IMG/VR virus record: IMGVR_UViG_2910013374_000001
Location: 32,001 to 96,000 of that record
Length of the DNA stretch: 64,000 nt
Source of the DNA: a virus
Taxonomy: Duplodnaviria; Caudoviricetes
Reading direction: 5' to 3' (one strand)
The translations under genes and the position numbers were made by a program. Positions 49,998-63,626 of the stretch are shown here, piece after piece. Each line of letters opens with the position of its first letter. Positions within the stretch are counted from its first letter, which is position 1. The notes beneath the pieces are model-generated. The model was not told the DNA's origin and did no database searches. It was given only the letters and a program-made list of their open reading frames with translations.

Positions 49998-52900
49998 GTG
50001 GCAAAGCTCGATCAGATACTCCTGAAGACGAGCAACCTGAGCCAGAGGGATCTGATAGATACCCTCGAAGGTAGAGGGAGAGATAGTCGAAATAGAATTG
50101 AAAAAGGCGAGACCGTTCTTCGCTATACCGGTGCTGGCAGGCTCGGCCCGGAAGGCGAGACGGTAAACGAGTCCCCTGGTCAAGTCGAATTCTGGACAGT
50201 CAACGACAGCGAGGAAGCTGTTCAGATCTACGTGGATTTCGGAGCTGAGATTCCGCCTTGGTCGACCTCCGAGCTGCAAGAAGCCAGCATCGGTCTCCTG
50301 AAGGACGTCGACATCCTCGATGGCGCCAGCGGCGGCGAGCTATTGCTGCAAGCTGGCAAGGTTCTCACCTGGGACGGCGCCAAGCTTGTGCTGCGCGATC
50401 CACCAGGGGTAGGGGAAGGCGCCAAGATCCTTGAGTCCCTGAACAATGTTGGTGACGTCAACTATGGCTTTTACGCAATATCCCTGAACAAGTTTGGACC
50501 TGAGGGTGGCGACATTCTCCTCTACAAGTTCAACAACCTGTCCTCAAAATATGAATGGGCACCGACCAAGTTTGAGATCGATCTGTTCGATGAATTCACG
50601 ACCCGGAATCGGTTTCTCGTCTTCAACAGGACTGTCCACAAGGGCATCGAGTTTGGGAATCTCACATCTACTGCGACGTCATCTGCGCGTTTCTCGGACG
50701 CTGGCGGGGCATCCATGCTCTTCAACCAGTACAGAGGTAGGAATCTCAGCAACCGAATCCATGGCGTCGAAGCCAGTTCTTTCGGTTCCATCAATCTGTC
50801 AGTCCGAGACGGTGAAGACATCGTCATCAAACTTGGGGATGGCTATGCAAACAATGAAGGAAAACCTGGCGCTCTTAGATACGAGCGGATCGATGATGTT
50901 CCTTTAACTATTACTGACGAGAGATACTTCGCCACGCTCAAGCACGTCAATCAAGCGATACGTGATTCGGACCTTAACTTCCTCAACAACGTCAATGACA
51001 CTGGGATCATTCAGGGACAGGTTTTGTCCTGGGATGCGATCAGACAGGAATACATCCCAACATCGGGGATCGCTCCAGACCTTTCTCAGGCTTCGATCGA
51101 GAGCCTCGAAGACGTCAATGCTCAAGCCAAGGGTCGCGGCAAGCCCCTGACCTGGAACGACACAGATAACACTTGGATCCCTGAGACTTTGAGGTCGAGA
51201 GATCTTGAGTGGGACTACAACCCAGAAGGTTTTGGCAATGGGGTTTTCTCAGAAGATGATCCTCTTGGAGAGGGTTATTGCGAAGAATGCAAGGAAGAGA
51301 CTCTCGGCCAATTCACGGTTGCCAGAAACAAGGCTTATGTCTGCCTGAGAACTAGAGATCTCAATTCCAGTACGGGGAATTTCGAATCCACCTATGACTG
51401 GGTCAAGATCCTGGTCGACGGCTACAACCTGACCGAAAATCGCCGTCAATACGCTCCGAACGAGTACAGGCAGGCCTATGGCTTCGAGAAGCGAAGGGAT
51501 GCCCTTTCTCCGGCTGCCTACGAGGGAACTCTTGGATCGCTAGCCAACGTCAGTACTGCTGACGTTTTCCCAGGTGCTGCTCCTATCTACAACGCCTCGA
51601 CGTCCTCCTTCGAGATGGGCTTCCCGGCTCTAGACCTGCAGAGCTATTCGGTAGGAGCGCTCGGCGATGTCAATCTCACCGGCGCTGGTGTGGGCTACGG
51701 ACTGCTGTGGAACGGCGAGCAGTGGTACGCCAGCAGCCTGGACCAGAAAGTACGACTTGATGATCTTCAGGATGTTCAATTTGGATCCTTAGGTGTTACC
51801 AACACCAAGATGGTTGCGGCGTTCATGCTTACGGACTCCCCGGCACTTGGCCCTACTTTTGTTTACAACCAAGACGTCTCTACGACCCTCGCTGTTTCGA
51901 CTCCAAAGGACAGCTACTTCCCAGGTTCCACGGCCTACGCCCGCTGGGGAGAAAATGCTTTTGGTGGTGGTCAAGCTCCTACTCAAGGTGGAACCTATTT
52001 CTTCAACTGGAGATCTCAGCCACCGATGTCAGTGGCCGAGATTCTTGACCTCTACATTCGCTGGCCGAAGGACAACTCCTGGCAGACGATCGACGGTGAT
52101 GGTGTCATCGAGCTGTACTTCTATCCAACGCAGCTCCTCGACACCAGGACACTTTTCCGTCGCGTTTCTCTGCTCCCAGGCACCGGCGGCTACATCCTGC
52201 AACTCGATCAGACAGGCGCCTTGCGCTTTGCCGTGTCAGCACCTTCCGGCGAGATTGGCTTCACGATTTCAACGGTTTCCAACTTCATCTCGACTAACAA
52301 CTGGCACCACGTCGCTCTTGTTAAAGAGGGAGCATCCAACAGGATGTATGTCGACGGGGATCTTGTAGGCGAGGCCCTAAGCACCACCCCTTGGACAGGT
52401 GACGACATGTTCGTCATGGGTCGGAACGACCTCGATGACAACAATGTTCTGACGCATCATTTCTTCCGTGGTGTCATGTCTGACCTGAGGGTCACCAAAG
52501 GACGCAGCAAATACAGCGGAAACTCTTATTCGCAGCCTGCATCAATCGAAGCTGAGATTATTGACACCACCCCGAATGCTGGCGATTTTCTTAGTTACGA
52601 CGGCACAAGGTGGACCAATGTTTCTGGCGTTGAGGGCGACATCAGCAACAAGTCGATCAATGAACTTGCAGATGTAGATACCGGCACCAACGACCCAGCA
52701 CAGGGTGATGCCTTGGTCTGGACTGGCGCAGCCTGGGAGCCTGGCATTCCTGGCATTGGCGCCACGTGGTCGTTGAACGACATGACAGATGTCGAGACCT
52801 TCTATCAATCAGGAACTCCTTCGATTCGCTTCTCTCAGGCCGAGAAGCTCAATTTCAGCAATGCCTTCAATGCAAGTGATGACGGGGGCTCGATAAGCCA

Positions 52901-61928: not shown

Positions 61929-63626
61929 ATGCCAGTCCCCTCCCCACGCTCGAAGCTGCTGCCCGCACGGGGTAACGCAGCCGATCTACTTGCCAATGTC
62001 TCCGCCCTTGTCGAGGGTGAGATCTGTTATGCGATCGACGAAAATTCCTACTACCAGAAAGTCGGCGCCTCCCTCGTAAAAGTTTCAGGCGGATCAGGAT
62101 CCGGAACTTCTTACGACGACACCGCTCTTGCTGGTCGCGTGACAACGGTCGAGGGAGAGGTTGATGCTCTTGAGACAACCGTTGCTGGGCTCTCCAGCTA
62201 TGACGACACCGCTCTTGCTGGTCGCGTGACGACTGTCGAAGGCGACGTTGATGCCCTGGAGACCACCGTTGCTGGGCTCTCCAGCTATGACGACACCGCT
62301 ATCGACGGCCGTGTCACTCAACTCGAATCAGACGTCTCTGGTCTGAGTGCCTACGACGACACTGCACTGGCTGCTCGCGTGACTCTCGCCGAGAGCGACG
62401 TCGATACTCTCGAGACCGACGTCGATACTCTCGAGACCGATGCAACTGCGTTGGCTGCTCGCGTGGCTCTCGCTGAAGGTGAAATCACCGACATCAAAGC
62501 CGATGCGCTCACCACGGCTGCAATCGACACAACTCAACAGTTAGCTCTGAATGATCTAGGCCCCCGAGTCACCACTCTTGAGAGCTCTACATATAACGGC
62601 CCCACCATCAGTGGTGACTTCGGAATAGCAACCGGGACCGCAGCCTTCGCTCCGGGGGATGGGAGTGTCCTCACCTTTACTGCGACGGGCGATCAGTTTC
62701 ACACTTTTACTGTGGGAAATACATACCCTCAAGGCGGGGTATCCGGAACTACTTGGGCATTGGACAACGGGAGTGTTTTCTATGGCTTGAATGAACCCAC
62801 GATTCCTGTCGATGATCTAAGAAGATTGCAAGTTGGGGACGAGGTTACATTTATCATCCCTGGAGAATCAGTTCCTTTCACGGCTACAGTTACCCAATCA
62901 AACACAACAGCCACTTCTGAGATTGAGTACTTAATCCTGGGCTTACAAAATCCTGCCGGTACGAGTTTTATACCTGGGACAACAATCAGTTCTCCAAAGT
63001 TTCAGGATGGAATCACCGAAGGCCTTTACTTCCCTGCGCCCTCTAGCTCTTCCCTCAGCTCCCTGACCGATGTTGATGCACTCACTCCATCGGATGGCAA
63101 TGTTCTCGCTTACAACAACACAGCCGGTAAGTGGGAGCCAACTGCACCAGCAACCGGTGGCGGTTCCGGTGGAGAGATCACTGGTCAATACAACATCGAC
63201 ACCGGCATCGCTGAAGCTCCTCCCCAGGAAGGACAAGTGCTGACCTGGAATGAGTCCGCCGGCTACTACTTGCCATCGGCTCCTTCCGGCGGCGGCGGCG
63301 GATCCTCGACCGTGACCGGTGACATCGAGATCGATCAAGGAATTGCGGCGTCCTCTCCGCAAGCAAATACCGCGTTGATGTTCAACGCGATTGCAAACAA
63401 ATTCATCCCTAGTGAGACATTCCGAATCGTTGGCATCGCACTGACTTTTGCCGACACATCAGCGAAACCAATATGGGAAGATCCCGGCACCGTTGGTGAT
63501 GTTTTCATCGACGCTTACGACTGGACGATGGTCATCTACACCGGTCCGTTTGATCCGAACGAGGGCGCTGGTGGCTGGCTTCAGATCGATATGAACCAAT
63601 CGGGTGGCGGTGGAGGCCTTGCCTGA
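61929..63626 (+). CDS. Tail fibre protein with Mtd_N-like head and YDDT coiled-coil repeats
   Basis: LPARG...LVEGEICYAID; YDDTALAGRV repeats (87-nt duplication from about 62112). Confidence 0.85.
   Translation: MPVPSPRSKLLPARGNAADLLANVSALVEGEICYAIDENSYYQKVGASLVKVSGGSGSGTSYDDTALAGRVTTVEGEVDALETTVAGLSSYDDTALAGRVTTVEGDVDALETTVAGLSSYDDTAIDGRVTQLESDVSGLSAYDDTALAARVTLAESDVDTLETDVDTLETDATALAARVALAEGEITDIKADALTTAAIDTTQQLALNDLGPRVTTLESSTYNGPTISGDFGIATGTAAFAPGDGSVLTFTATGDQFHTFTVGNTYPQGGVSGTTWALDNGSVFYGLNEPTIPVDDLRRLQVGDEVTFIIPGESVPFTATVTQSNTTATSEIEYLILGLQNPAGTSFIPGTTISSPKFQDGITEGLYFPAPSSSSLSSLTDVDALTPSDGNVLAYNNTAGKWEPTAPATGGGSGGEITGQYNIDTGIAEAPPQEGQVLTWNESAGYYLPSAPSGGGGGSSTVTGDIEIDQGIAASSPQANTALMFNAIANKFIPSETFRIVGIALTFADTSAKPIWEDPGTVGDVFIDAYDWTMVIYTGPFDPNEGAGGWLQIDMNQSGGGGGLA

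What the first reader, a model, noticed from the sequence alone, without database searches (positions are those of the whole stretch)
49998..63626. Plug-and-socket fibre chain ending in a scaffold of eight GG[DN]F triplets: candidate branched (bottle-brush) tail fibre
Seen: 49998 ends VVGGTF and 55613 ends ISGGTFGSG. The next genes (55613, 57993, 61929) each start with a related R/K-x-x-P-x-R...[GA]E[LI] Mtd_N-like domain. After a fibritin-foldon-like motif (~60603-60665), 57993 ends in 24 GGxF-type motifs organised as eight triplets: spacing exactly 17+17 aa inside each, 8-14 aa between, third motif always [LM]DGG. Known: Mtd_N and foldon domains are trimeric. Inference: a GGxF peptide is a plug and three plugs fill one trimeric socket. 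Terminal plugs from three chains give linear daisy-chaining, while each in-cis triplet binds one whole trimer, so a trimer of 57993 could display up to 24 downstream fibre trimers as a genetically tunable avidity amplifier.
Basis: partly seen in the sequence, partly recalled or inferred. Interest (0 to 1): 0.85.

Follow-up and report, generated by a model that had tools for sequence, protein, structure and literature searches.

The report
Phage fibre joints with amplified plug array
Four neighbouring tail-fibre genes of a Synechococcus prophage are very probably bolted end to end by a short "DGGxF" tail that fits a small trimeric cap on the next protein, and one of them carries this tail 24 times in eight exact triplets, which may let it hold many copies of the last fibre, although that branching remains untested.

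Summary
Genes 49998, 55613 and 57993 end in GGTF, GGTFGSG and GGDFSS. Genes 55613, 57993 and 61929 start with one related 55-residue domain (ND). Gene 57993 has a true T4-type foldon followed by 24 GGxF motifs in eight triplets (17+17, then 8-14).

Linear daisy-chaining is strongly supported by comparative genomics. In 78 IMG/VR loci fished with the ND alone, 46 of 70 distinct proteins encoded just upstream of an ND gene end in GGx[FYW], against 32 of 623 other ORFs (p = 4e-33). T4 gp37, which joins gp36, carries the same ND. The modelled ND resembles the trimeric Mtd N-domain. This scan found the same joint earlier on other DNA.

- For it: triplets are the unit of amplification, only the third spacing varies, the array gives a low-confidence monomer model, and distant relatives have more ND genes than terminal plugs.
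- Against it: most joints elsewhere have two motifs per chain and one ND gene, and distant arrays are mostly 3n+1.

My odds are about 0.8 for the joint and about 0.4 for multivalent docking. This is a new variant of known kinds: the T4 fibre joint and rope-type chain-like fibres.

The parts
49998..55613 (+). P0001, 1871-aa proximal fibre protein with two LamG-like domains. Its N-terminus looks like a divergent N-domain by eye, but the ND HMM does not hit it.
   Evidence: ORF and translation. Pfam Laminin_G_3 E 5.8e-24. Syntenic 1902-aa homologue in L006.
55386..55547 (+). Internal copy of the N-domain (ND) near the C-terminus of P0001 (residues 1797-1850)
   Evidence: ND HMM hit (whole-protein E 8e-23). 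Aligned in A2. Conserved in the L006 homologue.
55593..55610 (+). C-terminal plug of P0001 (VVGGTF, then stop)
   Evidence: The L006 homologue ends identically.
55613..57958 (+). P0002, 781-aa fibre segment. It has an ND (55613-55789), a weak LamG match, and a beta domain (57311-57898) that is the terminal domain in other phages.
   Evidence: The beta domain is 36% identical to the plug-less terminal domain of L066:8001-9107.
57929..57955 (+). C-terminal plug of P0002 (ISGGTFGSG, then stop), the end of a 19-residue extension that follows the beta domain
   Evidence: Homologues in L006, L099 and L100 end in GGTFGSG.
57959..57970 (+). Late-promoter-like motif CCGGAAGCCTAG upstream of P0003
   Evidence: The same motif stands before P0004 and before the next gene.
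57993..61829 (+). P0003, 1278-aa fibre. It has an ND (57993-58157), a domain shared with P0004 (59439-59822), 11-residue repeats (about 60303-60531), a foldon, a Gly/Pro linker and the array.
60600..60692 (+). Fibritin-type foldon (residues 870-900)
   Evidence: phmmer against PDB chains that carry the T4 foldon. Pfam Fibritin_C E 0.037, below the curated cut-off. AF2 pLDDT 70-79 here.
60693..60740 (+). Gly/Pro-rich linker between the foldon and the array
   Evidence: Low pLDDT. An equivalent G/P linker is seen in distant homologues (consensus).
60741..61826 (+). Array of 24 GGxF motifs in eight triplets. Composition: 31% Gly, 12% Asp, no Lys, net charge -53.
   Evidence: TRF 138-nt period. 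No Pfam, PDB or Atlas match. Only 14 clusters in 1.8 billion proteins.
61893..61904 (+). Late-promoter-like motif CCGGAACCCTGA upstream of P0004, in a 99-nt gap that also holds a hairpin
61929..63626 (+). P0004, 565-aa distal fibre. It has an ND (61929-62093), a 29-residue-repeat coiled coil, a domain shared with P0003 (62646-63023) and a terminal domain. It has no plug.
   Evidence: ND model pLDDT 75. A terminator-like hairpin follows at about 63651-63678.

Best explanation
Genes 49998, 55613, 57993 and 61929 encode four segments of one composite tail fibre of a P-SS2-like cyanosiphovirus prophage. The segments are assembled in gene order.

Each joint is made by a short acidic C-terminal peptide of the form hydrophobic-D-G-G-x-F (the plug). 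The plug sits on a flexible extension after the last folded domain of one trimer. It docks on a 55-residue trimeric cap (ND) at the N-terminus of the next protein. The ND is the same domain that begins T4 gp37, and its predicted fold resembles the N-terminal prism of Mtd.

The 360-residue C-terminal array of 57993 is a tandem amplification of this plug module, in units of three motifs. It hangs from a foldon through a Gly/Pro linker and forms the docking end for 61929.

Shown: the motifs, the domains, the foldon, and the genome-wide pairing of plug and ND.
Inferred: physical binding.
Open: how many 61929 trimers one array holds. One trimer, at the terminal motifs, and several trimers, one per triplet, are about equally likely on present evidence.
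For: - The ND HMM hits exactly these four proteins in the phage and T4 gp37 residues 10-51 (31 bits). P0003 also hits PHROG 1699, 'long tail fiber distal subunit'.
- In 78 IMG/VR loci retrieved with the ND alone, 46 of 70 distinct proteins encoded immediately upstream of an ND gene end in [GA]Gx[FYW] plus 0-4 residues. Only 32 of 623 other ORFs do (odds ratio 35, p 4e-33). Several of those 32 are followed by an ND gene cut off by the end of the locus.
- The plug can be added to or missing from the same domain. The P0002 beta domain is terminal and plug-less in L066, where no ND gene follows.
- Proteins of 82-136 aa that consist of little more than an ND and a plug exist.
- In all ten loci read, the array gene is directly followed by an ND gene of the PRSKLLPARGN type.
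- Cultured phage S-CRES3 has a 'fibritin' that ends in a foldon plus exactly one triplet, followed by an ND gene.
- The ND model (pLDDT 75) is closest to trimerisation domains: collagen XV Z 5.8 and Mtd residues 5-49 Z 5.1, rmsd 1.8 A over 43 residues.
Against: - No binding was computed or measured.
- Gene-neighbour association could in principle arise because both features mark modular fibre genes without touching each other.
- 24 of 70 upstream proteins lack a clear plug. Some of these are S8 peptidases, Cys-rich proteins, or carry degenerate motifs.
- No Pfam Mtd_N hit was found for any ND, and no solved structure contains this ND by sequence.
- T4 gp36, the known partner of a gp37-type ND, ends QDFGYY. 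That resembles the plug only loosely.
Confidence: 0.75

Rival explanations
1. Branched or multivalent scaffold (the reader's model; it extends the best explanation rather than contradicting it). Every triplet of the array wraps one ND trimer with three plugs from the same chain. A 57993 trimer would then carry up to 24 trimers of 61929 as a bottle-brush that raises avidity.
For: - Triplets are the unit of amplification: 138-nt period, and copy numbers of 24, 24, 18, 18, 21, 18 and 18 in the seven close relatives, all 3n.
- Within triplets the two spacings are always 17 and the two linkers share one consensus. The third spacing varies from 8 to 16. That fits three prongs joined by two bridges plus a free linker.
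- Internal motifs keep the consensus of the terminal plugs: G, G and F are each over 90% conserved.
- One triplet alone is the whole plug in S-CRES3 gp117.
- The array gives a low-confidence monomer model (pLDDT about 35) and is 31% Gly.
- In distant array-bearing phages the array gene is followed by 2-3 further ND genes that lack plugs, so sockets outnumber terminal plugs.
- Precedents exist. BPP-1 carries two Mtd trimers per fibre (PMC2408619). Rope proteins with 5-11 tandem docking sites for fibre dimers occur in GP4, VP1 and A1002 (PMC13730344).
Against: - There is no direct test.
- The commonest joint elsewhere has two motifs per chain and only one ND gene. Repeated motifs therefore need not mean repeated partners.
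- About 10 of the 17 positions in each repeat are conserved, more than a short docking peptide needs.
- Distant arrays are mostly 3n+1, not 3n.
- In this phage and its close relatives only one ND gene follows the array.
- The three sub-repeats of a triplet are distinct types that are conserved over long distances. Strict three-fold equivalence would not predict this.
Confidence: 0.4
2. Structural extension. The array folds by itself, either as a homotrimeric beta shaft nucleated by the foldon or as Ca-stabilised mini-domains. It works as a spacer or an adhesive shaft, and only its last motif(s) dock one trimer of 61929.
For: - The 17-residue period is strict, with conserved Gly, Asp, Thr and hydrophobic positions throughout the repeat.
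- There are three conserved acidic positions per repeat and no Lys, in a marine, Ca- and Mg-rich setting.
- A foldon N-terminal to a trimeric repeat shaft is a known workable design, by my recollection of adenovirus shaft-foldon chimeras, not checked here.
- Terminal plugs with 2-3 motifs and a single ND partner suggest the motif can act as a structural rung.
- The AF2 monomer model shows isolated hairpins at low confidence.
Against: - The monomer model is poor (pLDDT about 35).
- No match to RTX or any Pfam family, PDB sequence or Atlas cluster was found.
- A flexible Gly/Pro linker separates the array from the foldon.
- The variable third spacing argues against a continuous regular shaft.
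- This model does not explain the surplus ND genes in distant relatives.
Confidence: 0.4
3. Unrelated functions. The N-domains anchor each fibre separately to the baseplate or to another adaptor. The GGxF tails and the array serve something else, for example host-surface adhesion, a chaperone or protease tag, or a trimer cap.
For: - Shared N-terminal anchor domains on several independent fibres are common in phages (general knowledge).
- Some array-bearing relatives encode an S8 peptidase among the fibre genes.
- About a third of the proteins encoded upstream of an ND gene lack a plug.
Against: - The plug is enriched 35-fold exactly at the gene junction before an ND.
- The plug is present or absent on the same domain according to whether an ND gene follows.
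- ND-plus-plug mini-proteins have no other visible function.
- T4 gp37 uses this ND to join gp36, not the baseplate (established knowledge; for the domain match).
- This phage encodes no S8 peptidase.
Confidence: 0.12

Closest known systems
T4 long tail fibre, junction of gp36 with the N-terminus of gp37
   Same: The gp37 N-terminus (residues 10-51) matches the ND HMM (31 bits). The genes lie in assembly order. A trimer docks end to end on the C-terminus of the preceding gene product.
   Different: gp36 ends QDFGYY, not hDGGxF. It has a single copy and no array. I found no atomic structure of the T4 joint.
Bordetella phage BPP-1: Mtd trimers on the Bbp9 tail fibre
   Same: Mtd residues 5-49 are among the best structural matches of the ND model (Z 5.1, rmsd 1.8 A). 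Mtd follows the fibre gene bbp9. Two Mtd trimers sit on each fibre and avidity is functionally important (PMC2408619).
   Different: There is no detectable sequence match between the ND and Mtd or Pfam Mtd_N. Bbp9 ends DLGGIA, only a faint likeness to the plug. Valency is 2, not up to 24.
Chain-like fibres on 'rope' proteins (podophages GP4, VP1, A1002)
   Same: An extended, repeat-bearing polypeptide offers 5-11 tandem docking sites, each bound by a fibre oligomer through beta-sheet augmentation (PMC13730344). This is the same logic as the proposed bottle-brush.
   Different: The partners there are dimers, not trimers. The rope belongs to a nozzle protein or is a separate rope protein. Neither a GGxF motif nor an ND is reported there. 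That arrangement is shown by cryo-EM, whereas here it is only inferred.
T4 fibritin foldon
   Same: Residues 870-900 align with the foldon over its whole length. The foldon follows a coiled coil, as in fibritin.
   Different: In fibritin the foldon is the C-terminal end. Here and in relatives it is followed by a linker and 1-24 plug motifs.
RTX beta-roll and gp38-type polyglycine-II domains (Gly/Asp-rich fibre or adhesin repeats)
   Same: The composition is rich in Gly and Asp. Folding may be disorder-to-order or metal-dependent. Glycine-rich receptor-binding tips exist in S16 gp38 and Pam3 gp24 (PMC9608196).
   Different: The period is 17 residues, not 9. I saw no GGxGxDxUx nonapeptide and no GGGGxGG motif on reading the repeat consensus. 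No Pfam or PDB sequence match was found.
Cellulosome scaffoldin with cohesin-dockerin pairs (works like, not related)
   Same: One chain carries tandem docking modules that recruit many copies of partner proteins.
   Different: There the modules are folded domains of 70-150 residues, and it is a cellular system. No sequence relation was detected: Pfam gave no cohesin or dockerin hit.

Membership tests
T4 gp37-type N-terminal joint domain (PHROG 1699 / 19966) | Sequence match of the N-terminal ~55 residues to the gp37 N-terminus | tested here: met
   P0003 hits phrog_1699 (E 4.5e-7) and phrog_19966 at residues 5-69. The ND HMM hits T4 gp37 residues 10-51 at 31 bits.
T4 gp37-type N-terminal joint domain (PHROG 1699 / 19966) | Binds the C-terminus of the preceding fibre protein | not testable with these tools
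   There is only gene-neighbour statistics.
Pfam Mtd_N (PF18454) | Significant match to the Pfam model | tested here: not met
   No Mtd_N hit at E <= 0.1 for the four proteins, nor at E <= 0.01 for 71 ND-bearing proteins. The ND HMM does not hit Mtd.
Pfam Mtd_N (PF18454) | Fold like the N-terminal trimeric beta-prism of Mtd | tested here: inconclusive
   AF2 model pLDDT 75. Against 1YU0 residues 5-49: Z 5.1, rmsd 1.8 A, 43 residues aligned. Collagen XV/XVIII trimerisation domains score Z 5.8 and 5.0. These are the top three of 48,161 chains, but Z is under 8. The oligomeric state was not modelled.
Fibritin foldon (Pfam Fibritin_C) | Foldon sequence signature after a coiled coil | tested here: met
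   phmmer matches foldon-bearing PDB chains (E 4.9e-6 to 3e-3) and aligns residues 870-897 to the 27-residue foldon. Pfam Fibritin_C scores 14.6 bits, below the 21-bit cut-off.
RTX / haemolysin-type Ca-binding beta-roll | Tandem nonapeptides GGxGxDxUx and a match to the Pfam HemolysinCabind model | tested here: not met
   The period is 17 with the consensus D-G-G-D-F-T-T-G-x-x-G-x-x-D-x-T-L. Pfam returned no such hit.
Rope-type multi-dock fibre scaffold (GP4 / A1002 kind) | Each tandem repeat unit is occupied by one fibre oligomer in the virion | not testable with these tools
   This needs complex modelling, stoichiometry or cryo-EM. Only circumstantial evidence is available.
Self-folding repeat domain (solenoid or triple beta-spiral) | Confident independent fold of the array | tested here: inconclusive
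   The AF2 monomer run used a 22-sequence alignment. The array scored pLDDT 29-50 while the foldon scored 70-79. A trimer could not be modelled.

The most novel reading that the evidence does not exclude
The eight triplets are eight in-cis three-pronged staples, each clasping one trimeric N-domain. A single 57993 trimer would then carry up to 24 trimers of 61929. This would be a genetically tunable bottle-brush, with copy number changing in whole triplets (18, 21 and 24 motifs seen). More generally, the number of plug motifs per chain would set the valency of fibre joints in many marine phages, including the 82-136-residue ND-plus-plug proteins acting as splitters.
Probability: 0.4. Interest if true: 0.8.

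Novelty: new variant of a known kind. Interest (0 to 1): 0.62.

Why it matters
Phage host range is set by fibres that are often built from several gene products, yet the rules that join the pieces are known for very few phages and are structurally unsolved even for T4 gp36-gp37. A short, recognisable plug and a 55-residue socket recur across sipho-, podo- and myovirus-like marine contigs. Together they would let fibre architecture be read from sequence: which protein sits on which, and in what order. They would also give a portable connector for engineering fibres.

The triplet array adds a sharper question: can a phage tune the number of receptor-binding trimers per fibre simply by changing a repeat number? 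That would be a new route to avidity control in abundant ocean cyanophages. It can be tested directly, both with two recombinant fragments and with a cultured phage (S-CRES3) that carries the one-triplet version.

Tried and rejected
No complex was modelled. I did not imitate it by reading through the stop codon into a fusion chain.
- The AF2 monomer model of foldon plus array had low confidence, so it was not used for fold search.
- The protein Atlas gave no usable hit for the array.
- The PDB sequence search of the array matched only the foldon part.
- PDB profile searches with the ND found nothing relevant.
- Pfam found nothing on the array.
- megablast of the region against the phage records gave no match.
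- The search for related loci with the broad alignment A3 failed for lack of conserved columns.
- The array alignment found only 5 IMG/VR loci, all already seen.
- No RNA holder was listed among public sequencing runs, so relative expression of 57993 and 61929 could not be examined.
- An RTX beta-roll reading was rejected because the period and motif do not fit.
- A closed beta-propeller of eight blades was rejected because close relatives have six or seven triplets.
- An S8-peptidase processing idea was rejected for this phage because it encodes none.
- Literature searches found no description of the DGGxF motif or of the atomic gp36-gp37 joint.

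
Full report
**Setting.** The window is bases 32001-96000 of a 106,484-base virus record classed as a provirus, 99% complete. The proteins lie on a 2.7-Mb host contig. tblastn links them to cyanosiphoviruses P-SS2, S-CBS2 and S-CRES3. Upstream are a head module, a 2154-aa tape measure and a 2678-aa Cys-rich protein. 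The finding covers the last four large genes of the tail module: P0001 49998-55613, P0002 55613-57958, P0003 57993-61829 and P0004 61929-63626. The genes that follow P0004 carry no N-domain, and a lysozyme comes soon after.

**Observation.**
- P0001 ends VVGGTF, P0002 ends ISGGTFGSG and P0003 ends MDGGDFSS. P0004 has no such end.
- P0002, P0003 and P0004 start with one related ~55-residue domain, here called ND.
- An HMM of the ND hits only these proteins in the whole phage. It also hits an internal copy in P0001 (residues 1797-1850), about 15 residues before that protein's plug.
- Residues 870-900 of P0003 are a genuine fibritin foldon.
- The foldon is followed by a Gly/Pro linker and then 24 motifs in eight triplets, with spacings of 17 and 17 and then 8-14. 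Every third motif is preceded by L-D or M-D.
- The DNA shows a 138-nt period, which is one triplet.

**What the N-domain is.** Pfam gives no Mtd_N hit for the four proteins or for 71 ND-bearing relatives. PHROGs place the P0003 N-terminus with T4 gp37-type distal long-tail-fibre subunits, and my ND HMM hits T4 gp37 residues 10-51 at 31 bits. In T4 this end of gp37 joins gp36, which is established knowledge. An AF2 model of P0004 residues 1-100 (71-sequence alignment, pLDDT 75) shows four strands and a short helix, then a long helix. Its best matches among 48,161 PDB chains are the collagen XV and XVIII trimerisation domains (Z 5.8 and 5.0) and residues 5-49 of Mtd (Z 5.1, rmsd 1.8 A over 43 residues). 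It is not shown by sequence, and the Z values are modest.

**The plug-socket pairing is a general rule.** I fished 78 IMG/VR loci with the ND alone and asked what lies just upstream of each ND gene.
- Of 70 distinct upstream proteins, 46 end in [GA]-G-x-[FYW] followed by 0-4 residues. Only 32 of 623 other ORFs in the same loci do so (odds ratio 35, Fisher p 4e-33).
- Several of those 32 are in fact followed by an ND gene that is cut off by the end of the locus.
- The usual form is hydrophobic-D-G-G-x-F.
- Often the stop codon of the plug gene overlaps the start codon of the ND gene.
- The pairing occurs behind T7-type fibre N-termini, behind foldons and behind globular tip domains.
- The P0002 beta domain occurs without a plug, as a true end, in L066, where no ND gene follows.
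- Proteins of 82-136 residues that are little more than an ND and a plug exist.

This is strong indirect evidence that plug and ND meet. After reaching this result I found that the scan had reported the same joint on other DNA. I found no paper that describes it.

**The array family.**
- The array is rare: 14 clusters at 50% identity among 1.8 billion proteins, all of them 122-1650-aa proteins (most 790-1650 aa) with the array at the C-terminal end.
- It has no Pfam, PDB-sequence or Atlas match.
- Its composition is 31% Gly, 14% Ser, 12% Asp and 8% Phe, with no Lys and a net charge of -53.
- About ten of the 17 positions in each repeat are conserved.
- In the seven close relatives the pattern (17, 17, variable) is perfect and motif counts are 24, 24, 18, 18, 21, 18 and 18. 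In the distant clade all three spacings are 16-19, three sub-repeat types recur in order, and counts are mostly 3n+1.
- In every array locus read, the array gene is directly followed by an ND gene of the PRSKLLPARGN type.
- The cultured phage S-CRES3 has the minimal version. Its gp117 'fibritin' ends in a foldon plus exactly one triplet, and the next gene, gp118, starts with the ND.

**Does the array fold alone?** An AF2 monomer model of foldon plus array (22-sequence alignment) gave pLDDT 70-79 for the foldon and 29-50 for the array. A shallow alignment, a need for trimerisation or a need for metal ions would give the same result.

For multivalent docking:
- The triplet is the unit of amplification, and on its own it is a complete plug in S-CRES3.
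- The two intra-triplet linkers have fixed length and share one consensus, while the third is free. This is what three prongs, two bridges and a tether would look like.
- All internal motifs keep the plug consensus.
- In the distant clade one array gene is followed by 2-3 further plug-less ND genes, so sockets outnumber terminal plugs.
- BPP-1 carries two Mtd trimers per fibre. Rope proteins with 5-11 tandem docking sites are now known from cryo-EM.

Against it:
- The commonest joints have two motifs per chain and a single ND gene, so motif repeats can be structural.
- Conservation extends across the whole repeat.
- The three sub-repeat types are distinct.
- Distant arrays are not multiples of three.
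- This phage and its close relatives have only one ND gene after the array.

With a prior that favours ordinary structural repeats, I end near even odds: about 0.4 for multivalent docking, about 0.4 for a self-structured extension with terminal docking only, and the remainder for other readings.

**Verdict.** The linear plug-and-socket chain is well supported at about 0.8. It is a new member or variant of the T4 gp36-gp37 kind of joint, and this scan has seen it before on other DNA. The bottle-brush is a coherent and testable hypothesis with real circumstantial support and real counter-evidence, and it remains unproven. If true, it would be a trimer-binding, repeat-tunable analogue of the recently described rope-type chain-like fibres.

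Noticed in passing
window 28237-28248, 34799-34810, 57959-57970, 61893-61904, 63689-63700: The 12-mer CCGGAA(G/C)CCT(A/G)(G/A) stands 20-35 nt before the starts of the tape-measure gene, P0003, P0004 and the gene after P0004 (and at 34799). It looks like a phage late-promoter motif and gives P0004 its own copy separate from P0003.
   Followed up: partly
window 60303-60531 (P0003 residues ~770-850): About eight 11-residue (33-nt) repeats of the type W-V-E-E-K-S-Y-A-T-E-x precede a short heptad segment and the foldon. This hendecad periodicity is unusual for a fibre coiled coil.
   Followed up: no
window 59439-59822 and 62646-63023: P0003 residues 483-610 and an internal part of P0004 share a domain that is 43% identical. 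The array protein and its presumed partner are therefore partly paralogous.
   Followed up: no
L045:8001-8279, L050:8001-8279, L037:8001-8282, L066:7677-7973, L072:8001-8324, L062:7625-7957: These are tiny proteins of 92-110 residues that consist of an N-domain, a short linker and 1-5 plug motifs. They could be minimal connectors or, if valency follows motif number, splitters.
   Followed up: partly
L013:8119-9240 and 9271-10293 (Synechococcus phage S-CRES3 gp117, gp118): A cultured phage carries the minimal version: a foldon plus exactly one triplet at the C-terminus of a 'fibritin', followed by a fibre gene that starts with the N-domain. This is a ready experimental system.
   Followed up: partly
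L009:14654-16273, L010:14253-15812, L012:14351-15955; also fused in L101:1872-9980 and L102:3102-9980: Distant array-bearing phages encode a subtilisin-like (Peptidase_S8) protein among the fibre genes, or fused into a 2300-2700-aa fibre protein. The window's phage has none.
   Followed up: partly
L009:416-3496, L010:1744-4620, L012:664-3654, L102:178-3069: In distant relatives a ~1000-aa protein two genes before the array gene ends in GGGDFF or DGGLFM, with a second GGGDF motif 20-24 residues earlier. This plug variant has wider spacing.
   Followed up: no
window 63651-63678: A GC-rich hairpin followed by seven T sits right after P0004. This terminator-like site closes the fibre operon before the next late motif.
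   Followed up: no
L094:4599-6125 (BPP-1 bbp9) and L014:5869-6534 (T4 gene 36): The proteins known to carry Mtd and gp37 end in DLGGIA and QDFGYY respectively. These are only faint likenesses to the hDGGxF plug.
   Followed up: partly
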